This document shows, in pieces, positions 5,012 to 62,096 of a stretch of DNA of 64,000 nucleotides. The stretch covers positions 1-64,000 of IMG/VR virus record IMGVR_UViG_3300033074_000450; one strand, 5' to 3'. Position 1 is the first letter of the stretch, and each line of letters starts with the position of its first letter. The DNA comes from a virus. Lineage: Duplodnaviria; Heunggongvirae; Uroviricota; Caudoviricetes. Both the position numbers and the translations under genes were made by a program. The notes beneath the pieces were generated by a model. It had not been told where the DNA came from. It searched no databases and was given only the letters and a program-made list of their open reading frames with translations.

Positions 5012-5094
5012 AAAACCTCCTAGAATTGATAAAAGAGGGAGCTTGGAGCACTGAGCCAACTCAGCTACAAGTCATCCCTCCAAGTCCCTGAATA

Positions 5095-6330
5095 TTACTC
5101 TTCGTCAGAAGAAGATTTACTATTTCGAGCAGGACGGTCTTTTGCGAGTTTGTCATTGATTCGCATGAAAGATTCCAAACCTACTGCTGTAAAGGGGTCT
5201 GTAGCTCCAGCTTTACCATCTCCTCCCATAACCATCATTGATGGAAATTGGACTTGAGAAAGTTTCTCAGCTACTCCGATTGCAGTTTTCATCTGGTACT
5301 CAGCTCGTTCTTGAGGAGTCAAACCAGCAGAAACTTTCAAACGATTAGCTTCAGCTTCAGCACGACCTCGTGTAAGAGCTGCTTCAGATTCTTCTTTAGC
5401 CTTAAGCTTTTCTTGAACAGCAACAGCAGTTTCTCGTTCAGCGTTGATTACGGCTGTTTTCTTTTCAACTAGAGCGTCAGCTTCGGCTTTAGCTACACGA
5501 GCTTTACCTTCTTCAGATGCGGTGATAGCATCTTGCTTTGCTCGTTCAGCTTTTGCACGAGCAACGATTTTCTCTTGCTCTGCTTCTTTTTTCTTAACGA
5601 TAATAGCTTGGGTTTTATCATCAAAGTCGAAATCTTTGATTACAAAGTTGATAACGTCAACATTGTAACGGTTCAAAGGGGACTTTTTGCTGATAAGCTT
5701 TTTGCCATCTTTATCTGTACGAAGCTTAATCACAGTGTCCACATAGACGTTGCCATCTGTGTCTTTTTCTGTAACTTGCTCAGAAAGAGTCTCATAAATA
5801 CCTACTCGAATTTGTTCTTCTGCAAGACTTGTAAATTCTGCAAGTCGGCTAGAGTACGACTCTTCAGCTTTCATTGTGGCAGCAGTCTTATTCAGAGCTT
5901 CTTGAACCACTTGACGAATCAAGTCATTCTTAACAGCTTGATAAGATTTGAAATCTTTGTGCAAAGCAAGTTGGTCATCTTCCTTGGTAGAAAGACGGAA
6001 CTTGATAGCTCCAGAAATCAAAGCTTGACCTCCATCATTAAAGCGAACGGAAATAGGGTCTGCTCCCAAACCTTCTCCGTCACCTTCATGCTTAGAGAAG
6101 TAGTACATATCAGAAACCTGATAAGTAGTGATGGTACTGAACATCTGTCCATAAGTACCTGGAGTGTTACGAACAGTCATGTCTCCAGTAATAGCTGCTT
6201 GCTTTACTTGGTAATAACCTTCGTTGTTTGTTTCTAGGATTTGACCCCCTAGAGAAAGGGTGAGGATAAGAGCCGCAACAGCTCCTACCAAAATGCCCAC
6301 TTTTTTAGGGCTGATTCGTGCGTTTTCCAT
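5095..6330 (-). CDS. SPFH / band-7 domain membrane protein (flotillin / HflK / prohibitin-like)
   Basis: N-terminal TM helix (VGILVGAVAALILTLSL), a long SPFH-like core, and an Ala/Glu/Lys-rich coiled coil (EAEQEKIVARAKAERAKQDAITASEEGKARVAKAEADALVEKK). AAGGAGG RBS. Confidence 0.7.
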   Translation of the reverse strand: MENARISPKKVGILVGAVAALILTLSLGGQILETNNEGYYQVKQAAITGDMTVRNTPGTYGQMFSTITTYQVSDMYYFSKHEGDGEGLGADPISVRFNDGGQALISGAIKFRLSTKEDDQLALHKDFKSYQAVKNDLIRQVVQEALNKTAATMKAEESYSSRLAEFTSLAEEQIRVGIYETLSEQVTEKDTDGNVYVDTVIKLRTDKDGKKLISKKSPLNRYNVDVINFVIKDFDFDDKTQAIIVKKKEAEQEKIVARAKAERAKQDAITASEEGKARVAKAEADALVEKKTAVINAERETAVAVQEKLKAKEESEAALTRGRAEAEANRLKVSAGLTPQERAEYQMKTAIGVAEKLSQVQFPSMMVMGGDGKAGATDPFTAVGLESFMRINDKLAKDRPARNSKSSSDEE

Positions 6331-6342
6331 GTCTAGACCTCC

Positions 6343-6585
6343 TTAAAAGTCTTGGTTTTTGAACTGTTTTACTTTCTTACTCTTATTTGAGAGGTCCTTG
6401 TGATTCCTCTCAAAACTTTTTACTGTTACAAAATTCTCTTCTATTTCTTGAGCTTTGTCAAGCTGCTCAGTAATAGAAGCTTTTTTCCAGGCTTTATAGG
6501 CCCAAGTTAAAATACCAGTAACCACTAACAAGTGAAATACCAGCAATAGAATCGTTCCCATTATTTTGCTCCTTTCTTTACCCAA
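6343..6585 (-). CDS. Small single-pass membrane protein
   Basis: 80 aa with TM helix ILLLVFHLLVVTGILTW; lies between the cytochrome-c-like gene and the SPFH gene in the same operon. Confidence 0.4.
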   Translation of the reverse strand: MGKERSKIMGTILLLVFHLLVVTGILTWAYKAWKKASITEQLDKAQEIEENFVTVKSFERNHKDLSNKSKKVKQFKNQDF

Positions 6586-6830
6586 TCAATTATTTTCTGA
6601 CGCTCTTCCTCAGTCATTTTTGTAAAATTTCCAGGAGGCATCGTTTTGTTCTCCAATCTCAATTTAATCTTCTGAGCATCACGTTTAGCTTTATTTTCAT
6701 CAAGCCAGTTCTTCTCAGGCCAGTTAGTGTTATGGCACTGAGCACAATGTTTTTGAAACAGAGGTTTCACATCTTTATATGTGGGCTCTGAACCAGTAAT
6801 TATTACAAATGTAAATAGCTCTATAAACAT
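6561..6830 (-). CDS. Signal-anchored cytochrome-c-like (CXXCH) domain protein, resembling the planctomycete PSCyt1 domain
   Basis: CAQCH haem-binding motif, MPP motif and a W-x3-G-A-K C-terminus. Start trimmed to the internal Met that has an AGGAGG RBS. Paralog at 41450..41752. Confidence 0.55.
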   Translation of the reverse strand: MFIELFTFVIITGSEPTYKDVKPLFQKHCAQCHNTNWPEKNWLDENKAKRDAQKIKLRLENKTMPPGNFTKMTEEERQKIIDWVKKGAK

Positions 6831-6840
6831 AATTCCTCCT

Positions 6841-6880
6841 AAAAACGCTCCCGTTATGAATTCCGTCATAACTTTAACGG
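6841..6880 (-). terminator. Rho-independent terminator-like hairpin plus T5 on the minus strand, immediately upstream of the cytochrome-c-like gene RBS
   Basis: Minus-strand read: CCGTTAAAGTTATGACGGAATTCATAACGGGAGCGTTTTT, with a TTATGA/TCATAA stem. Confidence 0.35.
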
Positions 6881-7186
6881 ACTAGCCGTCCGAATCCTTG
6901 TCTCCCAGAGTTACTCTTAGGCTATTACCTAAGAGACAATCATTGGGTCTTGAGCCCAACTCCCGTCGTTACTAAACCTCGATTAACGAGAAGGAATCGC
7001 ACCTTCATTTTTCTTATAGCAAAATCAAAAAACACTTTTGAAGTAGAAGTGGGAAACTACCGAACTCCCTAACTACGCTTTGTCGGTTCGTGTGCTTCTT
7101 TCCATTGCTACCCTTGGACTTATTTGGGTAAGCTCATCGTAGCAGCACGAGAATAGGCTACCAAATACTTTTTACAAAGTCAAAAC
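6881..7186 (-). ncRNA. Candidate structured non-coding RNA region
   Basis: 356-bp gap (6831..7186) with no ORF over 12 aa. Several strong hairpins (CTCTTAGG-ctatta-CCTAAGAG; TCGTTA..TAACGA; GTAGC..GCTAC). It ends in the terminator above. Confidence 0.25.
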
Positions 7187-8689
7187 TTATTTTTCGATTA
7201 TCTTGGCAGCAAATACACGCTTATAAATTGATTTTCTCGCTTTGAGATGCTTTTCCATATATTTAGTGTCCACAAATCTAAAGTCGTGGAGTATGCCTTT
7301 TAATTTGCCTTCATAAAGCCGTACAAGCCTTCCAGTCGCTTGGACTATGGCAATCTCAGACTTGCCTCCCTGAGCCATAATGAGATGGTCTGAGGACGTT
7401 ATATCAATCCCCTCACCGATTACTGTGGAGCCTATTAGGATGCGAATTTCTTTCTTATTGAACGCTTCTAGAGCTTCGTCAATGGTTTCCTTATCATCGT
7501 CTCCAGAAATATATGTGTTTTCAAAACCAAGCTCGTCTAAGAACTCATGGATTACCTTACCAGCTTGGTCTTTACGATTGACAAGAATCAAAACTTGCTC
7601 ATTCTTTTTTACATAGTCTGTAAGAATTTCCTTAATCTTACTTAGTAACTCCACTCCTCCGCAATAGTTCTTCTTATACTCACGCTGGTAATTCTTGGTT
7701 CCAATCCCCTGGAGCGTATGTATAATTACTTCAATCGGAGTGAGGTAGCCTTCTTCAATGGCTTTGAATGCAGGATAGTTGTAAAGTCGATTTGAGAGAA
7801 ATCCCCACATGTCTAAGGTCTTCTCATCGTTCCTTAAAAAGGTTCCTGTGAAGCCGAATCTGTAGTAAACATGCTCTAGAGCTGGGAGCAGGTCCGTGTA
7901 ACTTTTACTTCCAGCATGATGAATCTCATCAATGAAGATAGCATCAATGTCCCCGAAGTATTCTTCAATAGCTTTCTTTTTATTTAGAGAAGCCATCGAC
8001 TGAATGTTAATGAGTCTGATTGGTATTTTTTTCAATTTCCTCATTTTAGACGCTGAAAGCTTTTTAGAATCCACTACAATCACATTGCGTCTTCCGAAGT
8101 GTTTAATCAAAGCCTTCTTAAGCTGATTCATTAGAGGTTTTGAAGGAACTACAATTAAGCTCTTAACTCCGAAATGTTCTAAGAGTCTCATCAGAATCAA
8201 ACTCTTGCCACTACCTACCGCTGATTCAAAAACGCCTCGCCCAGTATTAACGCCTTGTTCATGCATTTCATCCTGATAATATCGTGGTTTATGGAATTCT
8301 TCACAGAGTACAAAATCAAATTTCTTATCTGGCACTACCCTATGGTCAATAGTTTTGTATTTTGGATAAACTACTTCCAGAACATCCTTGACGATGTTCA
8401 AATGCCCTGTTGGAAAAGTATCCCCTTTTAACCATTTTACAAATTCATTGGCTTCTAGTTCTTTAATCTGCTTAGAAATCCATCCACACATTTGTCTGGC
8501 TTTTCGAGCCGTGACCTGACTTTTAGATTTTTTCTTACCATCCCAGAACTTCATTTTTTTAAACAGGGACGCTTTTTCAGCTTCAATATCTCGTTGATAA
8601 GTCAGAATCTCATCAACGCTATCCATCACTTCTTGGGGGAAGTGCTGAAGTTTGCAAAAAGAATTTCGGATGACCAAAGTGCTTTTCAA
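7187..8689 (-). CDS. Superfamily 2 DEAD/DEAH-box DNA helicase
   Basis: Walker A AVGSGKS, DEIH box, and motif VI QATGRLVR. Confidence 0.75.
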   Translation of the reverse strand: MKSTLVIRNSFCKLQHFPQEVMDSVDEILTYQRDIEAEKASLFKKMKFWDGKKKSKSQVTARKARQMCGWISKQIKELEANEFVKWLKGDTFPTGHLNIVKDVLEVVYPKYKTIDHRVVPDKKFDFVLCEEFHKPRYYQDEMHEQGVNTGRGVFESAVGSGKSLILMRLLEHFGVKSLIVVPSKPLMNQLKKALIKHFGRRNVIVVDSKKLSASKMRKLKKIPIRLINIQSMASLNKKKAIEEYFGDIDAIFIDEIHHAGSKSYTDLLPALEHVYYRFGFTGTFLRNDEKTLDMWGFLSNRLYNYPAFKAIEEGYLTPIEVIIHTLQGIGTKNYQREYKKNYCGGVELLSKIKEILTDYVKKNEQVLILVNRKDQAGKVIHEFLDELGFENTYISGDDDKETIDEALEAFNKKEIRILIGSTVIGEGIDITSSDHLIMAQGGKSEIAIVQATGRLVRLYEGKLKGILHDFRFVDTKYMEKHLKARKSIYKRVFAAKIIEK

Positions 8690-8750
8690 AACAAAATCCT
8701 CTCGGCTAATAATATCAAGCGTTATATGAGGAATAACCTTATATTAAAAG

Positions 8751-8827
8751 TATTATCCTTGTATTATTAAGAGAAGTATCATATTATAAGGATTAAGTAA
8801 ATATTAAATATAATCCTTGTATTATTA
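8751..8827. promoter_or_regulatory. Operator-like repeat array in the divergent intergenic region between the helicase gene (-) and GroEL (+)
   Basis: Direct repeat ATCCTTGTATTATTA at 8755..8769 and 8813..8827. An inverted copy ATAAGGATTAAG lies between them at 8786..8797. Region is AT-rich. Confidence 0.45.
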
Positions 8828-8938
8828 CGCTTCATATTAGTGAATTCTATCATGAAAATTTTACTCTGTCAATAGGAATTCTTTACAAACGAACTAAGAT
8901 GTGGTAGCTGGGGATTAAAAGAGTTGTTTCGCTTTTTT

Positions 8939-8972
8939 CTTGACCCACATTTTTATTTTTGATAGTCTTTGA
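8939..8972 (+). promoter_or_regulatory. Candidate sigma70-type promoter for the GroEL / plus-strand block
   Basis: TTGACC - 17 nt - TAGTCT preceded by a TG. Two GA(G/T)AGCCGCTG(C/T) repeats follow at about 8973 and 9012. Confidence 0.3.
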
Positions 8973-9067
8973 GAGCCGCTGCTACGCTGAGATGCGTCGA
9001 GAGGGATTAGGATAGCCGCTGTATAGCAAGTGATTCCGTGAATCCTGGTTTTTATTCAGGAGATTTC

Positions 9068-10669
9068 ATGAACAAAAGAATTATCAGTAAAGAAGCCCTT
9101 GCAGTAAAAACTGTAGAAGGTGTCTCAGAAATAGCCGCTGTAGTCAAACGTACTCTAGGCCCAGGAGGTCTTCCCATTTTGATACAACGTACAGGATTCC
9201 AACCTAACGGAGACCCTCTTGGTCCCAAAATTACCAAGGATGGGGTTTCAGTAGCCGATGAGTGTTTTTCTCCTGACCCAGAAAAAGACCTTGTAATGCA
9301 AGCAGTTAAGGCTATTTGTCGTAGAACTAATTCAGTAGCAGGTGATGGAACCACTACCGCAATCGTTTTAGGAGAGGCTATCTTAAAAGAAACCCTTTCA
9401 GAACTCGAATCTGACAAAAAACTAAATCCACAATTAGTCCGAGAATCCGTTGAAGCTGCTGCCAAAGAAGTTATGGCAGTTTTAAAAGCTCAGGCAGTTC
9501 AGGTAAAAGACCCTAAAATCATTGCCCAAGTAGCTACGATTTCTGCCAACGGTGAGACTGAAATTGGAGATGTAATCGGTGAGGCTTTCAAACGAGTTGG
9601 AGCTGAAGGAGTTGTGACTGTAGACGAAGGTCACGGAACCAGCGTATCTTTGGACGTAGTTGATGGCTACCAGATTCAACGAGGAGCTGAAGCTAGAGAT
9701 GGTTTTTTCAACAATAAAGAAATGACTCAGTTTGAAGCTGAAGATGCAAGGCTTCTACTTTTTGATGGTAAGCTTCTGAATTTCACAACTTTGATTCCCA
9801 TGCTCACGAAGCTTGCCAAAGAAAACAATAATAAGATGCCTCCCGTTGTAATTCTTGCAAATGAGTACAGTAATGAAGTTCTTCAGTGGCTTCTAATTCA
9901 GAAGGCAGAAGTAGGAATGCAATTTGTGGCAGTTCGAGGTCCACATACTACGCATGTTCGTTCTGGATACTATGATGATATTGCTGCTATGTCTGGAGGA
10001 ACCCGTTTAGGTAACGGTGGACGAAGCTTGGAAGCTGGAGAAGCTGAAGACTTTGGCCTAATTAAGAAGGTTGTAGTTGATAAATACACTACCACTTTTT
10101 ACGAAGGTCAAGGAGATGAAGAAGAAGTAATCGAGCGTGTGAAACAGCTAAAAGCTCTTAAATCTAAAGCTGAAACTCCTTATGATGCCCAAGTAGTTGG
10201 AGACCGTATTGCGGCTCTTACTCAAGGTATCGCTAAGATTGGAGTTGGAGGCTCAACTGACCTAGAAATCAAAGAAAAGTATGACCGTATTGAGGATGCT
10301 CTGAACGCTGCTCGTGCAGCTATCCAAGAAGGAATCATTCCAGGTGGAGGAGTTACTCTACTCAAGATTGCCATTGAATTAGGCAGTAAGAGTATTGGTC
10401 ATAAAATTTTAGCTCGTGCTCTTCAAAAACCCTTTTATCAAATTCTTGAGAACATCGGGTATGAAATCACTCAAGAAGAGTTTGAAGAAATCATGAAGAA
10501 TAAAGATTTTACATACGATGCAAGAAATAAAAAAGTTGTGAATTCATTAGACTCTGGAATCATTGACCCAGTTAAGGTAACGAGAACAGGTTTAGAGAAT
10601 GCAGTTAGTATCGCTAGTTTGTTGTCTACAGCAGGAGGCGGTATTGTGTTTGTCAAGGATGACAAGTAG
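9068..10669 (+). CDS. groEL: Chaperonin GroEL (Cpn60)
   Basis: VKRTLGPGG, ITKDGVSVA, VAGDGTTTA and GIIPGGGV motifs are colinear with bacterial GroEL. Start trimmed to Met11, which has a GGAG RBS. Confidence 0.9.
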   Translation: MNKRIISKEALAVKTVEGVSEIAAVVKRTLGPGGLPILIQRTGFQPNGDPLGPKITKDGVSVADECFSPDPEKDLVMQAVKAICRRTNSVAGDGTTTAIVLGEAILKETLSELESDKKLNPQLVRESVEAAAKEVMAVLKAQAVQVKDPKIIAQVATISANGETEIGDVIGEAFKRVGAEGVVTVDEGHGTSVSLDVVDGYQIQRGAEARDGFFNNKEMTQFEAEDARLLLFDGKLLNFTTLIPMLTKLAKENNNKMPPVVILANEYSNEVLQWLLIQKAEVGMQFVAVRGPHTTHVRSGYYDDIAAMSGGTRLGNGGRSLEAGEAEDFGLIKKVVVDKYTTTFYEGQGDEEEVIERVKQLKALKSKAETPYDAQVVGDRIAALTQGIAKIGVGGSTDLEIKEKYDRIEDALNAARAAIQEGIIPGGGVTLLKIAIELGSKSIGHKILARALQKPFYQILENIGYEITQEEFEEIMKNKDFTYDARNKKVVNSLDSGIIDPVKVTRTGLENAVSIASLLSTAGGGIVFVKDDK

Positions 10670-41229: not shown

Positions 41230-41453
41230 CGGAAGCCATTGCATTACAACTAATTATTGCAGTTTCAACATTTTGCACGACATTCTACAATCAAGAAGTA
41301 AAACGAGTCAGTGAAACTCGAATGGAGCAAGAGACTCCAAGGGGCTGTTATCAGAAGATATGGACATGTGGACACAAAACAACTGATGCCACAGTTATTT
41401 CTGTGGAGACACATAATTGTATTGGAAAATATTTAAGGGGAGAATTAAAATGA
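41226..41453 (+). CDS. Small Cys-containing hypothetical protein
   Basis: 75 aa. Confidence 0.3.
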   Translation: MTEAIALQLIIAVSTFCTTFYNQEVKRVSETRMEQETPRGCYQKIWTCGHKTTDATVISVETHNCIGKYLRGELK

Positions 41454-41752
41454 AAAACTTATTTTTAACTTTGTTACTCACGCTTCAGGCTAATGCAGGG
41501 ACTCCTTTTTTAGATGAAACCACAATTTCATTTAAAAAAGATATAAGACCTATATTTAAACAGGCATGTACAAAATGTCATAATGGGAGCAACAAGCTAC
41601 CAGATATTACTAAATATCAAGTGGCTTTCGATTTGAAAAATGAAATAGTAGCTCGTGTTACTTCTGATAAGACTATGCCAATGTATGGTAAATTATCTGA
41701 ATCCAACAGAGAACTAATTAAGCTTTGGGTAGAGCAAGGTGCAAAAAAATGA
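41450..41752 (+). CDS. Secreted cytochrome-c-like (CXXCH) domain protein, paralog of 6561..6830
   Basis: Signal peptide MKNLFLTLLLTLQANA. CTKCH motif, MPMYG motif, and WVEQGAKK C-terminus. Start trimmed to the Met with a GGGAGA RBS. Confidence 0.55.
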   Translation: MKNLFLTLLLTLQANAGTPFLDETTISFKKDIRPIFKQACTKCHNGSNKLPDITKYQVAFDLKNEIVARVTSDKTMPMYGKLSESNRELIKLWVEQGAKK

Positions 41753-57220: not shown

Positions 57221-57497
57221 AAACCTCATAGGAGTCGAGAAGCTGGGCAAGGCTTCTCGAAGGAATGCAGGGGACCTCTTTGCTCCCACTGAAGTCACTC
57301 ACAATATCGGAGTAGTTCGTTACGTTGGAGAAGACCTTACCTCTAAATTCTCAGTAGGCCAGAAGGTTTATTGCGGTAATCAGAGAGAAGAAATTCGCAT
57401 GGACGGAGCCGATATAATGGTGATGCAAGAGCAAAATGTAATTGCCATTGTGGAGGACTCAGATGAGGAAGTCAAAGAAGAATCCTCAGAAGCCTAG
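57201..57497 (+). CDS. groES: Co-chaperonin GroES (Cpn10) homolog
   Basis: Colinear with E. coli GroES: MKVRMLRNLIGVEK vs MNIRPLHDRVIVKR; NAGDLFAP vs SAGGIVLT; GVVRYVGED vs GEVLAVGNG; ADIMVMQEQNVIAIVE vs EEVLIMSESDILAIVE. Acidic tail. Confidence 0.7.
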   Translation: MKVRMLRNLIGVEKLGKASRRNAGDLFAPTEVTHNIGVVRYVGEDLTSKFSVGQKVYCGNQREEIRMDGADIMVMQEQNVIAIVEDSDEEVKEESSEA

Positions 57498-57501
57498 AAG
57501 G

Positions 57502-58086
57502 ATGTTCGATTTTAGCGGTAAGCAGAACGCTGACGCTAAGATGGCTCAGTTGGGTATCCATTTGGAAACTCTCTTAGAGCATGGCATCAATTTTAGAGAC
57601 CGTATCATTACTATAAAAGATGATATTGATTCTGACTTATTTTTAAAGATTGACGCTGCTTTATCTGAGATGGAGTCAGATAATCGTAGAGCCATTACCA
57701 TTAGAATCAACAGTCAAGGCGGTTCAGTTTATGACGCTTTAGCTATCGTTGGTCGTTTGAAATCATCTAAATGTAGAATTGTTACTATTGGCTTTGGAGC
57801 CATCATGTCAGCGGCTACCCTTATTCTAGCTTGCGGAGACGAGAGAAAAATGTCAGATATTGCATGGTTCATGCACCATGAATCACAATATGCAGTAGAA
57901 GGCTCTCATAGCCAGATTGTGGACGCTGTGACTCAAGCTGAGAAAGAAGAAGCTCAATGGGCTACAGCAATGGAAGGCTACAGCAAGAAGGATGCCAAGT
58001 TCTGGAGAAAAGTAGCCAAGGATAAAAACGCCTATTTTACAGCTCAGGAATTACTTGACATGGGTGTAATTGATGAGCTAATCTGA
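57502..58086 (+). CDS. ClpP/S49-fold serine protease (lambda gpC-like prohead protease candidate)
   Basis: INSQGGSVYDALAIVGRL, catalytic Ser in GAIMSAATL, His in MHHES. Start trimmed to the Met after the GroES stop. Confidence 0.6.
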   Translation: MFDFSGKQNADAKMAQLGIHLETLLEHGINFRDRIITIKDDIDSDLFLKIDAALSEMESDNRRAITIRINSQGGSVYDALAIVGRLKSSKCRIVTIGFGAIMSAATLILACGDERKMSDIAWFMHHESQYAVEGSHSQIVDAVTQAEKEEAQWATAMEGYSKKDAKFWRKVAKDKNAYFTAQELLDMGVIDELI

Positions 58087-59574: not shown

Positions 59575-60567
59575 ATGTCACTTTTGGGTAAAAACTTATT
59601 GAAAGTATTAGGAGTCCTAATGGTAGGGACTATTCTAGGAATTGGAATCTATCAAGGTAAGGATTATATCCAAAACCAACCAGTGTATTCCTCTTTTGAC
59701 GATGCAAAACCGTATGAGAAAATCACAGTAGTAAATGAGGCTCAACCATTGAAGCCAACAATCGCACCTGCTGTTGAACCAGTCAATCCTGAAACTCTAA
59801 AAGTTTTGACTCTTCGTCCAGATAACACGTTGATTTTTAACGAAGTTGTGACTGACGATTCAGTAGCCAAATTTCAGCTTAAACTAAACGAAATGAGTAA
59901 TAAGCTTCCTGCAAGCCAAGAAATCATCTTAGTTCTTTACACTCCAGGTGGAAGCGTTGATGCTGGTATGTTACTAATTGATAGCGTCAAAGCTGTTCCT
60001 CAGAAAGTCAAAACCTTAACAATTTTCGCAGCTTCTATGGGTTTTCAGTTTGTACAAAACCTTGACGAGCGTCTTATTATCCCTTCTGGAGTCTTGATGA
60101 GCCACAGAGCTACGTTGGGTCTTCAAGGTGAGTTGGATGGAGAATTTGATGTTCGATTGAATTCTATCCGAAGACAAGTACGCTACATGGACCAAATTGC
60201 TGCAAATAGAATGAAAATGCCTTTGGACGCTTATAAGACCTTGATTCGAGACGAATACTGGGTTCATGGTTTTGAGTCCGTAGAAGATAGGGCAGCAGAT
60301 AAACTTATCTTGGCTAGATGTGGGAAAGAAATGACTGGAACAGAAGAAAAAGAAGTACCTACATTCTTCGGACCTATTAAGGTTGTTTTCTCTAAATGCC
60401 CTTTGATTACCGCTCCTCTTGAAATCAAGTTTGATAAATTAGCTCCAGAGGGTCTTCCTGAAATGAAAACCTACATGAGTCTCTTGTATCAAGACCCAAA
60501 AGAATTCTTCAATACCTACATTAAAACAGAAAAATTTATGCAGGTTCTTGTAAATAAGAAAAAGTAG
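59575..60567 (+). CDS. Membrane-anchored ClpP/NfeD (S49)-like serine protease
   Basis: N-terminal TM helix LLKVLGVLMVGTILGIGI. TPGGSVDAGMLLID, Ser in AASMG, His in MSHRA. Confidence 0.55.
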   Translation: MSLLGKNLLKVLGVLMVGTILGIGIYQGKDYIQNQPVYSSFDDAKPYEKITVVNEAQPLKPTIAPAVEPVNPETLKVLTLRPDNTLIFNEVVTDDSVAKFQLKLNEMSNKLPASQEIILVLYTPGGSVDAGMLLIDSVKAVPQKVKTLTIFAASMGFQFVQNLDERLIIPSGVLMSHRATLGLQGELDGEFDVRLNSIRRQVRYMDQIAANRMKMPLDAYKTLIRDEYWVHGFESVEDRAADKLILARCGKEMTGTEEKEVPTFFGPIKVVFSKCPLITAPLEIKFDKLAPEGLPEMKTYMSLLYQDPKEFFNTYIKTEKFMQVLVNKKK

Positions 60568-61172: not shown

Positions 61173-61205
61173 AATCAATAGCCATAGATGTTGTATAATT
61201 TATCT

Positions 61206-62096
61206 ATGGCAGATAAAAAATTCAACATTATCGTACCTACAGAATTAGTCAAGGGAGAAGACGGTGATTGGAAAATCATGGGTCTTGCCTCGACTCCTTC
61301 TAGAGACCTCCAAGGTGAGGTCATTGACCAGTCTGGTCTAGACCTAACTCCTATCGACATGAAAAAGGGTATCTTCAACTGGGACCATAAAAAGGGTCCA
61401 GAAAATACCATTGGAGTTATCGACTCTTATAAGAAATCAAAAGATGGCCTTTGGCTTCAAGGAAGACTTCTGAAGAACCACAGTAAAGCCAAGGCGGTCT
61501 ATGAAATCATGACCTCCCTTAATAAGGCAGATGTGGGTCGAATGGGTATGTCCATTGAGGGTGTAATCAAAGAACGAGCTGGAAAAGACGGAAAAGTAAT
61601 CAAAAAAGCCGTTATTCATTCATGTGCTTTGACTATGAATCCAGTAAATACCGATACTTATGCATCTTTAATCAAGTCTCTAAATGAAGTAGAATTCGAG
61701 AAGGATGAAGAACCACAAGTTGATTCTAGCGTTCAAGAGGTCGAATTTGATAGAGCTGACCAACCCATGTTCTCTGCCAACCAAGTTCTTACCATTGTGG
61801 AAAAGGCTCTTGGAGTAGGTGCAGGTGGAGCCGCTGCTCCTGCTGACCGTTCAGGTGGAGATGCCCTTGTCCAATCCGATATGAAGGAAGATGACAAGAA
61901 AAAGAAGAAAAAAGAAGATGTTGAAAAATGTAATGAAGTTACTAAGTCTTTGAAAAAACAGAGTTTTCAGCTTTACAAATCAAGTATCATAGATGTTTTG
62001 GATAAATTACAAAAGCTTTATCCTGAGCATTCACGTTCTGAGATTTGGGAAGCAGTTAGGGAAAGGCTTCAAAGCTCATTTCCCAGCATTAAATAA
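61206..62096 (+). CDS. HK97-family (U35/S78) prohead protease with a C-terminal scaffold-like extension
   Basis: IMGLAS, NWDHKKGPENTIGVIDSYKKSKDGLWLQG, MSIEGV and IHSCALTMNPVNTD match the U35 consensus. The alternative start at 61188 is preceded by a TATAAT. Confidence 0.75.
   Translation: MADKKFNIIVPTELVKGEDGDWKIMGLASTPSRDLQGEVIDQSGLDLTPIDMKKGIFNWDHKKGPENTIGVIDSYKKSKDGLWLQGRLLKNHSKAKAVYEIMTSLNKADVGRMGMSIEGVIKERAGKDGKVIKKAVIHSCALTMNPVNTDTYASLIKSLNEVEFEKDEEPQVDSSVQEVEFDRADQPMFSANQVLTIVEKALGVGAGGAAAPADRSGGDALVQSDMKEDDKKKKKKEDVEKCNEVTKSLKKQSFQLYKSSIIDVLDKLQKLYPEHSRSEIWEAVRERLQSSFPSIK

What the first reader, a model, noticed from the sequence alone, without database searches (positions are those of the whole stretch)
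5095..6830. Minus-strand membrane operon: CXXCH cytochrome-c-like protein, a small TM protein and an SPFH/band-7 protein; a remote NfeD/ClpP-like membrane protease at 59575..60567
SPFH (stomatin/flotillin/HflK) proteins in bacteria are typically partnered with an NfeD-type membrane serine protease. Here the phage carries an SPFH protein with a TM anchor and coiled coil, and a TM-anchored ClpP-fold protease elsewhere. The SPFH gene is co-transcribed with a signal-anchored CXXCH-domain protein and an 80-aa TM protein. This reads as a phage-borne membrane-microdomain or envelope-remodelling module. Candidate roles are superinfection exclusion, lysis timing, or protection of the respiratory membrane. 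I cannot place it in any described phage system.
Basis: partly seen in the sequence, partly recalled or inferred. Interest (0 to 1): 0.7.

Follow-up and report, generated by a model that had tools for sequence, protein, structure and literature searches.

The report
Phage SPFH membrane cassette plus cytochrome
A large uncultured phage has a tight early operon for a small haem-type cytochrome, a 72-residue membrane protein and an HflK/C-like SPFH scaffold; the last two form a cassette found in many phages and beside ftsH in a spirochaete, while the distant "NfeD-like" gene is an exported ClpP relative with no solid link to it.

Summary
On the minus strand lie a CXXCH cytochrome c (true start 6830, 89 aa), a 72-aa single-pass protein (6561-6343, TAATG overlap) and a 411-aa SPFH protein (6330-5095). 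Pfam supports both domain calls. The gene at 59575-60567 is a membrane-anchored ClpP-fold protease.

- The conserved unit is the small partner plus SPFH. 26 of 45 non-redundant viral SPFH loci have this partner type. Vibrio phage pVp-1 has it too, and crAss001 has a variant.
- In Thiospirochaeta the same pair (SPFH 55% identical) lies directly after ftsH.
- The cytochrome is a lineage-specific insertion. Relatives with 70-80% identical SPFH lack it there. It resembles the C-terminal haem domain of PuuD urate oxidases, and the phage carries a second paralogue.
- The protease is a ClpP (S14) relative with the Ser-His-Asp triad and no NfeD domain. It sits in the late head region. It is adjacent to SPFH in one distant phage only, out of about 130 loci.

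Best reading: an early membrane cassette that builds an HflK/C-like cage, perhaps acting on host FtsH. The mechanism is inferred, not shown. Phage SPFH genes are already annotated, with unknown function. A conserved, unannotated structured RNA lies in the operon leader.

The parts
8844..8872 (-). Sigma-70-like promoter (TTGACA-17-TAGAAT with TG) upstream of the helicase; candidate start of the transcript that carries the operon
   Evidence: 11/12 match. This is a consensus match only; the number of such sites in the region equals the shuffle expectation.
7187..8689 (-). SF2 helicase, the conserved upstream neighbour in this phage lineage (context)
   Evidence: Pfam ResIII/Helicase_C and PHROG 16. 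Same position in L001 and L098-L100.
7014..7186 (-). Conserved non-coding leader that travels with the cytochrome gene
   Evidence: 96% identical to L001-L003, against 84-88% for the flanking coding DNA. No BLAST match to it in L098, L099 or L100, which lack the cytochrome here. Its fold is not better than shuffles, z=0.0.
6841..7012 (-). Inserted structured RNA element between the leader and the cytochrome start. It has a T-arm-like hairpin and a terminal hairpin plus U-run just before the RBS
   Evidence: Absent from L001-3. Homologues in L100 (upstream of partner+SPFH), two Pseudomonas phages, and Salmonella and Shewanella jumbo phages. 46 pairs, 16 with compensatory changes, 0/500 shuffles reach this. 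MFE z=-2.8. No Rfam or tRNA hit.
6561..6830 (-). Monohaem class-I-type cytochrome c, 89 aa (CAQCH, distal Met in TMPP); accessory gene of this sublineage
   Evidence: Pfam Cytochrome_CBB3 and Cytochrom_C above cut-off. C, C, H, M and P invariant in 10 sequences. 35% identical to the C-terminal haem domain of a Urate_ox_N (PuuD-type) protein. Absent at this site in L098-L100.
6343..6561 (-). 72-aa single-pass partner protein: TM helix from residue ~3, K/R after the helix, K/E-rich tail
   Evidence: TAATG overlap with the cytochrome stop and an AAGGAG RBS. The same architecture lies directly upstream of SPFH in 26 of 45 non-redundant viral loci, in pVp-1 and in Thiospirochaeta. Charge bias predicts N-out/C-in in 32 of 34. 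No Pfam family; weak PHROG 'Rz-like spanin' hit, E=4.6e-5.
5095..6330 (-). SPFH/Band-7 scaffold protein, 411 aa: N-terminal TM, SPFH domain, ~100-residue helix, C-terminal helix
   Evidence: Pfam Band_7 E=1e-12. AF2 model mean pLDDT 76.7. Best Foldseek match is an HflK/C complex chain (7VHQ), E=1e-9, then prohibitin, erlin, flotillin, stomatin and QmcA. 1285 homologues at E<=1e-10.
5036..5089 (-). Imperfect hairpin followed by UCUUUUAU after the SPFH stop; possible partial terminator
   Evidence: MFE -23.4 kcal/mol, z only -0.8. Not picked up by the terminator scan. Weak evidence.
41450..41752 (+). Second cytochrome c paralogue, 100 aa, with a canonical signal peptide (MKNLFLTLLLTLQANA), CTKCH and TMP
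   Evidence: HMM hit E=1e-11. Sequence. Aligned. Pfam Cytochrome_CBB3 22.2 bits, below the cut-off of 27.
59575..60567 (+). Membrane-anchored, probably periplasm-facing ClpP-family serine protease (called 'ClpPx' here), 330 aa
   Evidence: Pfam CLP_protease. Profile vs PDB: best hit canonical ClpP, E=1e-18, with Ser154/His177/Asp226 aligned to the triad. N-terminal hydrophobic segment in 72 of 76 family members. Invariant Cys249/Cys275. Conserved position before the prohead protease. No NfeD domain.
57442..58086 (+). Second ClpP-related protein (context, not part of the module)
   Evidence: NCBIfam Clp_rel_HeadMat is the best-scoring model, E=8e-22, at 78 bits against a cut-off of 120. My hydrophobicity scan found no segment at its N-terminus, only one near residue 111. 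A counterpart lies upstream of ClpPx in L009 and many other loci.

Best explanation
The functional core is a mobile two-gene cassette: a ~72-aa single-pass partner plus a TM-anchored SPFH scaffold with HflK/C-like architecture. It is expressed with the early/middle replication and nucleotide-metabolism genes.

Once inserted in the host inner membrane, the SPFH protein oligomerises through its long helix into a cage or microdomain. The SPFH domain probably faces the periplasm. The partner's charged tail probably faces the cytoplasm.

The cage would then alter membrane-protein quality control during infection. The most likely route is enclosing or restricting the host FtsH protease, as HflK/C does.

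In this phage sublineage a small exported-type monohaem cytochrome c has been inserted upstream as a moron and is translationally coupled to the cassette. It may give the module a redox or respiratory role, but it is not required for the cassette.

The gene at 59575-60567 is a separate, late-region, exported ClpP-family protease. It is not an NfeD partner.

Shown: domain identities, gene packing, cassette conservation, accessory status of the cytochrome, ClpP affiliation.
Inferred: topology, cage formation, FtsH as target.
For: - Domains and fold. The best structural match is an HflK/C chain. All top hits are cage-forming SPFH proteins.
- Cassette: a partner of the same architecture lies directly upstream of SPFH in 26 of 45 non-redundant IMG/VR loci. 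It spans SPFH identities of 29-80%. pVp-1 has it, and crAss001 has a variant partner. No other neighbour family of at least 80 aa is shared across lineages.
- Bacterial counterpart: in Thiospirochaeta perfilievii the order is ftsH, 70-aa partner, SPFH (55% identical, E=1e-148), co-directional with 35-50 nt gaps in a non-prophage context. Two related MAGs show the same arrangement. 14 of 18 genome hits are spirochaetes.
- Topology: K+R bias puts the SPFH N-terminus inside in 22 sequences against 3 of 32. It puts the partner tail inside in 32 of 34.
- Early context: the neighbours are helicase, ThyX, RNR and GroEL in the window. Across about 40 loci they are dUTPase, HD, Macro, NADAR, Pyr_excise and methylases.
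- Cytochrome accessory: absent at this site in L098-L100, elsewhere in L004 and L006, and in no other of 52 SPFH loci.
- Published HflK/C biology: it controls FtsH (PMC12048511) and affects respiration (PMC12005517).
Against: - The ftsH adjacency is seen in only one bacterial lineage. Other spirochaete homologues lack the partner in my scan and are followed by DUF401.
- NCBIfam HflK/HflC models do not match. There is a single SPFH gene, not a K/C pair.
- Predicted topology puts the partner tail and the SPFH domain on opposite sides of the membrane, so how they cooperate is unclear.
- 19 of 45 viral loci lack the type-A partner.
- There are no expression, localisation or interaction data.
- The host is unknown, so the presence of FtsH, a periplasm or a Ccm system is assumed.
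Confidence: 0.45

Rival explanations
1. Phage-encoded protease/cage pair. The SPFH cage and the membrane-anchored ClpP-like protease (ClpPx) work together on the periplasmic face of the inner membrane, as a functional analogue of stomatin-STOPP/NfeD or HflK/C-FtsH. The cytochrome would be a third periplasmic component.
For: - SPFH is directly followed by ClpPx (72-nt gap, same strand) in L008.
- The cytochrome is followed by a 65-aa ORF and then ClpPx in L004.
- Three contigs of 116-120 kb carry both SPFH and ClpPx, judged by matching contig lengths.
- All three proteins are predicted to face the periplasm.
- An invariant Cys pair in ClpPx fits a periplasmic disulfide.
- SPFH-protease pairs are a general theme (established knowledge).
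Against: - 79 of 80 ClpPx loci (+-6 kb) and 51 of 52 SPFH loci (+-7 kb) show no adjacency.
- No contig name is shared between the 80 listed ClpPx loci and the 52 SPFH loci. This includes about 24 ClpPx contigs of at least 94 kb.
- In the window the genes are 53 kb apart, in an early and a late module.
- ClpPx keeps a fixed position next to head genes.
- There is no NfeD domain.
Confidence: 0.15
2. Superinfection exclusion or other envelope defence. The early-made partner and SPFH remodel the inner membrane to block DNA entry by later phages, or to resist abortive-infection membrane damage.
For: - Early-region location among accessory/moron-type genes.
- Small single-pass membrane proteins are typical of exclusion systems such as T4 Imm/Sp and HK97 gp15 (my knowledge).
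- The cassette moves between unrelated genomic contexts.
Against: - No PADLOC match.
- The close bacterial homologue sits in a housekeeping context next to ftsH, not in a defence island or prophage.
- No direct evidence.
Confidence: 0.15
3. Respiratory support module (auxiliary metabolic function). The cytochrome c adds periplasmic electron-transfer capacity. The SPFH scaffold stabilises respiratory complexes to keep the proton-motive force up during a long infection.
For: - A bona fide haem-c motif, conserved across the family.
- Two paralogues in one genome, one with a clear signal peptide.
- The cytochrome is translationally coupled to the cassette.
- HflK/C and prohibitins affect respiration (PMC12005517).
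- The cytochrome is related to the electron-accepting haem domain of PuuD (PMC4562309).
Against: - The cytochrome is absent from nearly all SPFH cassettes and from close relatives at this site.
- The N-terminus of the operon copy has no positive n-region, so export and haem attachment are uncertain.
- No redox partner is identified.
Confidence: 0.12
4. Lysis-timing device. The 72-aa protein is a holin- or antiholin-like membrane protein, and SPFH controls its raft formation.
For: - The partner has the classic 'one TM plus highly charged C-terminus' look.
- Weak PHROG hits to Rz-like spanins, E=4.6e-5.
- A cell-wall hydrolase lies within 2-3 genes in crAss001 (gp89) and L007.
- An M15 endolysin lies ~2.6 kb away in the window.
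Against: - Only 5 of 150 neighbouring proteins from about 40 loci are wall hydrolases.
- In the window the endolysin is on the other strand, at the end of the tail operon.
- The cassette sits with early genes.
- The bacterial homologue is chromosomal and lies next to ftsH.
Confidence: 0.08

Closest known systems
HflK/HflC-FtsH complex of E. coli (PDB 7VHQ, 7WI3, 9CZ2)
   Same: - N-terminal TM anchor, SPFH domain, long helix and C-terminal segment.
- Best Foldseek match.
- Predicted N-in/C-out topology.
- A bacterial homologue of the cassette lies directly after ftsH.
   Different: - One SPFH gene plus a 72-aa non-SPFH partner, instead of two SPFH paralogues.
- No match to the NCBIfam HflK/HflC models.
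- Only 12-15% sequence identity in the structural alignments.
- Association with FtsH is not shown.
Stomatin-NfeD/STOPP operons (Pyrococcus PH1511/PH1510; E. coli QmcA-YbbJ, PDB 8Z5G)
   Same: - An SPFH gene preceded by a small membrane-protein gene in one operon.
- A ClpP-fold membrane protease exists in the same genome.
- QmcA is among the structural matches.
   Different: - The partner has no NfeD OB-fold domain.
- The protease is ClpP-type (Ser-His-Asp), lacks an NfeD domain and is not in the operon.
- Established knowledge: STOPP uses a Ser-Lys dyad.
Annotated phage SPFH proteins (crAss001 gp91, Vibrio phage pVp-1 gp0097, Aeromonas phages, T4-like 44RR/Aeh1/RB43 ORFs)
   Same: - Same protein family at about 30% identity.
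- The crAss001 and pVp-1 copies are each preceded by a small TM protein.
- Function unknown in every case (PMC1524935, PMC7760394, PMC13239085).
   Different: - None of the 52 viral SPFH loci outside the window's sublineage has the cytochrome c, the conserved leader or the leader RNA element.
- The crAss001-type partner carries a different motif (IPFYYW).
C-terminal cytochrome c domain of PuuD membrane urate oxidase (Pfam Urate_ox_N proteins) and PSCyt1/Haem_bd domains
   Same: - CXXCH ... MPPGN(F/L)TKMTEEER ... W..GA motif.
- 35% identity over 85 residues.
- HMM E-values 1e-8 to 2e-16.
   Different: - A stand-alone 89-aa protein rather than a domain of a ~400-aa or ~900-aa protein.
- Phage-borne.
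- Its redox partner is unknown.
ClpP (MEROPS S14) and ClpP-related phage head-maturation proteases
   Same: - CLP_protease fold.
- GxAASMG-like Ser motif, MSH His motif and an aligned Asp.
- Located near head genes.
   Different: - N-terminal signal peptide or TM anchor in 72 of 76 members.
- An ~85-residue C-terminal extension with an invariant Cys pair.
- Far below the NCBIfam ClpP cut-offs.
- No tblastn match in 50,697 cultured phage genomes.

Membership tests
SPFH / Band 7 superfamily | Band_7 (PF01145) domain above the curated threshold | tested here: met
   48.9 bits against a cut-off of 23.6, E=1e-12
SPFH / Band 7 superfamily | Membrane anchor, SPFH domain and long coiled-coil helix, as in cage-forming members | tested here: met
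   AF2 model: helix 8-31, SPFH 32-236, helix 238-336. Foldseek hits to HflK/C, prohibitin, erlin, flotillin and stomatin, E 1e-9 to 1e-6.
SPFH / Band 7 superfamily | Assembly into a ring or cage on a membrane | not testable with these tools
   Needs expression and cryo-EM or native PAGE
HflK/HflC | Match to the HflK/HflC equivalog models | tested here: not met
   No NCBIfam family at E<=0.01
HflK/HflC | Two paralogous SPFH subunits encoded together | tested here: not met
   One SPFH gene; the neighbour is a 72-aa non-SPFH protein
HflK/HflC | Periplasm-facing SPFH domain (N-in) | tested here: inconclusive
   The positive-inside rule favours N-in in 22 sequences against 3 of 32. This is a prediction only.
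HflK/HflC | Physical or genetic association with FtsH | tested here: inconclusive
   ftsH lies directly upstream of the homologous cassette in L153, L155 and L157 only. The phage host is unknown.
NfeD / STOPP membrane protease | C-terminal NfeD OB-fold domain (PF01957) | tested here: not met
   Only CLP_protease is found in 59575-60567 at E<=0.1. The small partner has no Pfam family.
NfeD / STOPP membrane protease | Ser-Lys catalytic dyad | tested here: not met
   The ClpP-type Ser154 and His177 are invariant, and Asp226 aligns with the ClpP catalytic Asp. A dyad cannot be excluded biochemically.
NfeD / STOPP membrane protease | Encoded in an operon with the SPFH gene | tested here: not met
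   53 kb apart in the window. Adjacent only in L008, among about 130 loci.
ClpP family (S14) | CLP_protease domain with Ser/His/Asp at the catalytic positions | tested here: met
   43.6 bits against 20.2. PDB profile hit to ClpP, E=1e-18, with aligned motifs. The Asp position is Asn in L004 and L008.
ClpP family (S14) | Equivalog-level identity with cellular ClpP, or with the ClpP-related head maturation protease | tested here: not met
   34.6 bits against 308.6 (clpP) and 32.3 against 120 (Clp_rel_HeadMat)
Class I c-type cytochrome | CXXCH haem-attachment motif plus a distal Met ligand | tested here: met
   C29, C32, H33, M64 and P65 are invariant in 10 sequences. Pfam Cytochrome_CBB3 32.5 bits against 27.
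Class I c-type cytochrome | Export signal (needed for haem attachment) | tested here: inconclusive
   The operon copy has a short hydrophobic N-terminus with Glu and no Lys/Arg. The paralogue at 41450 and the homologue P0007 have clear signal peptides.
Class I c-type cytochrome | Covalently bound haem | not testable with these tools
   Needs haem staining or mass spectrometry
Holin / spanin lysis proteins (for the 72-aa protein) | Profile match and location in a lysis cassette | tested here: not met
   Only weak PHROG Rz-like spanin hits, E=4.6e-5 and 1e-3. Early-gene context. Wall hydrolases are rare among neighbours.

The most novel reading that the evidence does not exclude
The phage builds its own periplasm-facing proteolytic or redox microcompartment. 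An SPFH cage, nucleated by the 72-aa partner, would enclose the membrane-anchored ClpP-like protease and a small haem cytochrome. This would be a viral counterpart of HflK/C-FtsH or stomatin-STOPP, used to reshape the host envelope. The operon would also be gated by a previously undescribed structured leader RNA found in several unrelated large phages.
Probability: 0.1. Interest if true: 0.8.

Novelty: new variant of a known kind. Interest (0 to 1): 0.5.

Why it matters
SPFH genes have been noted in phage genomes since 2006, and every paper I found calls their role unknown. This work adds four things.
- The phage SPFH gene usually comes with a ~70-aa single-pass partner.
- The same pair sits beside ftsH in a spirochaete chromosome, which gives a concrete hypothesis: a viral HflK/C-like regulator of host membrane proteolysis.
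- The hypothesis can be tested in cultured systems, Vibrio phage pVp-1 and crAss001.
- It separates what belongs together (partner + SPFH) from what is incidental (cytochrome c, ClpP-like protease).

Phage-borne c-type cytochromes and an exported ClpP family absent from all cultured phage genomes are both little known and worth recording.

Tried and rejected
- NfeD assignment of 59575-60567: rejected. It has no NfeD domain and is ClpP-type.
- The trio as a conserved module: rejected. The cytochrome is missing in L098-L100 and in all other SPFH loci.
- SPFH-ClpPx synteny as a rule: rejected by scans of 80 and 52 viral loci.
- Any other conserved neighbour of SPFH: BLAST clustering of 620 neighbouring ORFs found none across lineages.
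- Lysis cassette: Pfam on 150 neighbours showed mainly nucleotide and RNA-repair accessory genes and few wall hydrolases.
- Defence system: no PADLOC hits.
- Sequence search of the SPFH profile against PDB: no hit. Fold search was needed instead.
- The 102-aa 'signal-anchored' cytochrome: rejected in favour of the 89-aa form.
- The conserved leader 7014-7186 as a structured RNA: its fold is no better than shuffles.
- More copies of the inserted RNA element: an exact-pattern scan of IMG/VR found none. A covariance-model search of 2.3 Mb of held loci found none beyond L100 and L005.
- Host identification: the portal is only 37% identical to SPO1-like phages. The bacterial SPFH homologues point to spirochaetes, but this does not prove the host.
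Full report
OBSERVATION. The minus strand between 6830 and 5095 carries three tightly packed ORFs, and 59575-60567 carries a fourth.

Pfam places the 411-aa protein in Band_7/SPFH (E=1e-12, 48.9 bits against 23.6). It places the upstream ORF in Cytochrome_CBB3/Cytochrom_C (32.5 against 27; 24.4 against 21.3). It places the remote ORF in CLP_protease (43.6 against 20.2). PHROG 11908, a family of unknown function, matches the SPFH protein at 9e-51.

Reading the sequence shows the packing:
- AGGAGG-N4-ATG at 6830 for the cytochrome.
- Its stop overlaps the next start as TAATG at 6561, preceded by AAGGAG.
- A 12-nt gap with AAGGAGG comes before the SPFH ATG at 6330.

Five of the seven database homologues of the cytochrome are 89 aa (the others are 81, 91 and 98 aa), and they align from the same Met. 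The longer 102-aa 'signal-anchored' ORF from 6869 exists only because of an insertion described below.

The window is a large phage. It has terminase, portal, prohead protease, PolA, primase-helicase, SbcC, RNR, ThyX and GroEL. The portal is only 37% identical to SPO1-like portals.

WHAT THE SPFH PROTEIN IS. An AlphaFold model (mean pLDDT 76.7) gives a TM helix (8-31), an SPFH domain (32-236), a ~100-residue helix (238-336) and further C-terminal helices. Foldseek against the PDB returns cage-forming SPFH proteins at the top. An HflK/C complex chain is first (7VHQ, E=1e-9), then prohibitin, erlin, flotillin, stomatin and QmcA. HflK/HflC equivalog models do not match, and a sequence profile finds nothing in the PDB.

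The family is large. There are 1285 proteins at E<=1e-10, many on contigs of 60-290 kb. About 30%-identical members are annotated in crAss001, T5-like Vibrio phages and Aeromonas phages. Papers that mention phage SPFH genes call their role unknown (PMC1524935, PMC7760394, PMC13239085).

THE CONSERVED UNIT IS PARTNER + SPFH. I collected 52 viral SPFH loci and the contexts of close relatives.

In 26 of 45 non-redundant viral loci, the gene directly upstream and co-directional encodes a 45-125-aa protein (usually about 72 aa). These loci span 29-80% SPFH identity. The partner has a TM helix starting at residue 1-25, Lys/Arg just after it, and a Lys/Glu-rich tail. The tail often ends in a phi-x-x-F-K-like motif. 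Vibrio phage pVp-1 has the same arrangement. crAss001 has a variant partner with an IPFYYW motif.

BLAST clustering of 620 neighbouring ORFs found no other family shared across lineages. Pfam on 150 neighbours showed mainly early accessory genes: dUTPase, HD, Macro, NADAR, Pyr_excise and methylases. Only 5 were wall hydrolases.

Charge bias predicts that the SPFH N-terminus is inside (22 sequences against 3 of 32). It predicts that the partner tail is inside (32 of 34).

BACTERIAL COUNTERPART. One homologue (55% identical, E=1e-148) lies in the Thiospirochaeta perfilievii chromosome. The order there is ftsH, a 70-aa partner of the same architecture, then SPFH. All three are co-directional with 35-50-nt gaps, among housekeeping genes. 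Two related MAGs repeat this arrangement.

14 of 18 hits in the species-level genome collection are spirochaetes. Most of those lacked a partner in my scan, and they are followed by DUF401. So the ftsH link is a lead from one lineage.

It fits the known role of HflK/C as an FtsH cage (PMC12048511) and the structural match. That is why I favour an HflK/C-like action on host membrane proteolysis, with low confidence in that specific step.

THE CYTOCHROME. Cys29, Cys32, His33, Met64 and Pro65 are invariant in ten sequences, including a second paralogue in the window. That paralogue lies at 41450-41752 and has a canonical signal peptide.

The nearest bacterial relatives are the C-terminal haem domains of ~400-aa Urate_ox_N (PuuD-type) proteins and PSCyt1 domains. 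One PuuD-type domain is 35% identical over 85 residues and shares MPPGN(F/L)TKMTEEER (PMC4562309).

The gene is accessory:
- L098, L099 and L100 (SPFH 70-80% identical) go from the helicase straight to the partner.
- In L006 it sits between RNR and dUTPase.
- In L004 it sits before a 65-aa ORF and a ClpP-like gene.
- None of the other viral SPFH loci has it.

Its own N-terminus (MFIELFTFVIITGSEP) lacks a positive n-region, so export and haem attachment are not certain.

THE PROTEASE. 59575-60567 belongs to a family I call ClpPx. There are 117 IMG/VR hits and 193 in the large protein collection. There is no tblastn hit in 50,697 cultured phage genomes.

A profile search of the PDB hits canonical ClpP (E=1e-18), with the Ser, His and Asp motifs aligned. 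No NfeD domain is found. 72 of 76 members have an N-terminal signal or TM segment, and two Cys residues are invariant. Both features fit a periplasmic location.

In the window and in L009 it occupies a fixed place: Cas4-like nuclease, small ORF, ClpPx, 130-160-aa ORF, prohead protease.

Links to the operon are few:
- SPFH is followed by ClpPx in L008.
- The cytochrome precedes ClpPx in L004.
- Both genes co-occur on three contigs of 116-120 kb in the window's lineage, judged by matching contig lengths.

Against a link:
- 79 of 80 ClpPx loci and 51 of 52 SPFH loci show no adjacency.
- The two lists share no contig name.

I therefore rate the protease-pair model at about 0.15.

EXPRESSION. The operon lies in a minus-strand block with helicase and ThyX, divergent from GroEL/RNR. 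A strong sigma-70-like site precedes the helicase. A weak hairpin plus U-tract follows SPFH. None of this is experimental.

SIDE FINDING. The stretch between the helicase and the cassette is an insertion hot-spot:
- L098 and L099 have nothing there.
- L001-3 have a leader plus the cytochrome.
- L100 has a 184-aa ORF plus an RNA element.
- The window has the leader, the RNA element and the cytochrome.

The 172-nt element (7012-6841) has homologues in L100, two Pseudomonas phages, and Salmonella and Shewanella jumbo phages. In the jumbo phages it lies upstream of tRNA genes. On five sequences, 92% of cells pair and 16 of 46 pairs show compensatory changes. No shuffle out of 500 reaches this, and slid controls give at most 4. 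That alignment was fitted to the model. An independent RNAalifold run on three sequences gave 12 compensatory pairs. Rfam and ARAGORN find nothing.

VERDICT. The SPFH gene itself is a new member of a family already annotated in phages. The partner-SPFH cassette, its ftsH-linked bacterial counterpart, the phage cytochromes and the exported ClpP family are useful new descriptions. No mechanism has been demonstrated for any of them.

Noticed in passing
window 6841-7012 (minus sense); also L100 7285-7456, L005 2969-3143(-), L220 1982-2156, L221 1998-2177: A 172-nt structured RNA with no Rfam family sits in the operon leader. It has a T-arm-like hairpin (GGGYUCAARNCCC) and a terminal hairpin plus U-run before the RBS. 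Homologues occur in an uncultured relative, Pseudomonas phages Ebordelon and Holyagarpour, Salmonella phage SA002 and Shewanella phage SXP01; in the last two it lies upstream of tRNA genes. 16 of 46 pairs covary. It could be an attenuator or riboswitch-like leader, or a stable tRNA-like small RNA.
   Followed up: partly
window 7014-7186: The non-coding leader upstream of the cytochrome is 96% identical to L001-3, while the flanking genes are 84-88% identical. It gives no BLAST match in L098-L100, relatives that lack the cytochrome at this site. It looks like the promoter/leader part of a moron. Its predicted fold is no better than shuffles.
   Followed up: partly
window 41450-41752 (+): A second small cytochrome c paralogue with a clean Sec signal peptide (MKNLFLTLLLTLQANA) lies among small genes that I did not annotate. 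The phage therefore carries two c-type cytochromes.
   Followed up: partly
window 59575-60567 and loci L010-L089: The exported ClpP-like family (ClpPx) is common in uncultured viral contigs. It has no tblastn match in 50,697 cultured phage genomes. It has an ~85-residue C-terminal extension with an invariant Cys pair and a fixed position just before the head protease. Its role is unknown.
   Followed up: partly
window 57442-58086, 59575-60567, 61188-62096: Three protease-type genes lie within 5 kb of the head module. One is a ClpP-related protein whose best NCBIfam match is the ClpP-related head-maturation model, below that model's cut-off. One is the exported ClpPx. One matches a PHROG head-maturation protease family (phrog_1028).
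   Followed up: no
window 9038-10669 (+): A phage-encoded GroEL-type chaperonin (PHROG 5725, E=5e-106) is divergently transcribed from the helicase-SPFH block. It is conserved in relatives L001 and L098-L100.
   Followed up: no
L219 1760-1951 (crAss001 gp92); L149, L132, L137, L138, L142: A second type of small partner lies upstream of SPFH in crAss001 and several contigs. It has one TM helix followed by a conserved IPFYYW(F) motif, instead of the Lys/Glu-rich tail.
   Followed up: no
L091-L094, L097 (about 7300-9700 in each locus): In one lineage of ~176-kb contigs, SPFH has a different set of neighbours. It is followed by a Cys-rich lipoprotein-like ORF and then a convergent ClpP-like gene with no signal peptide. 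This ClpP-like protein is a different family from ClpPx (HMM E about 1e-5).
   Followed up: no
This suggests recombinational replacement of the cytochrome gene.
   Followed up: no
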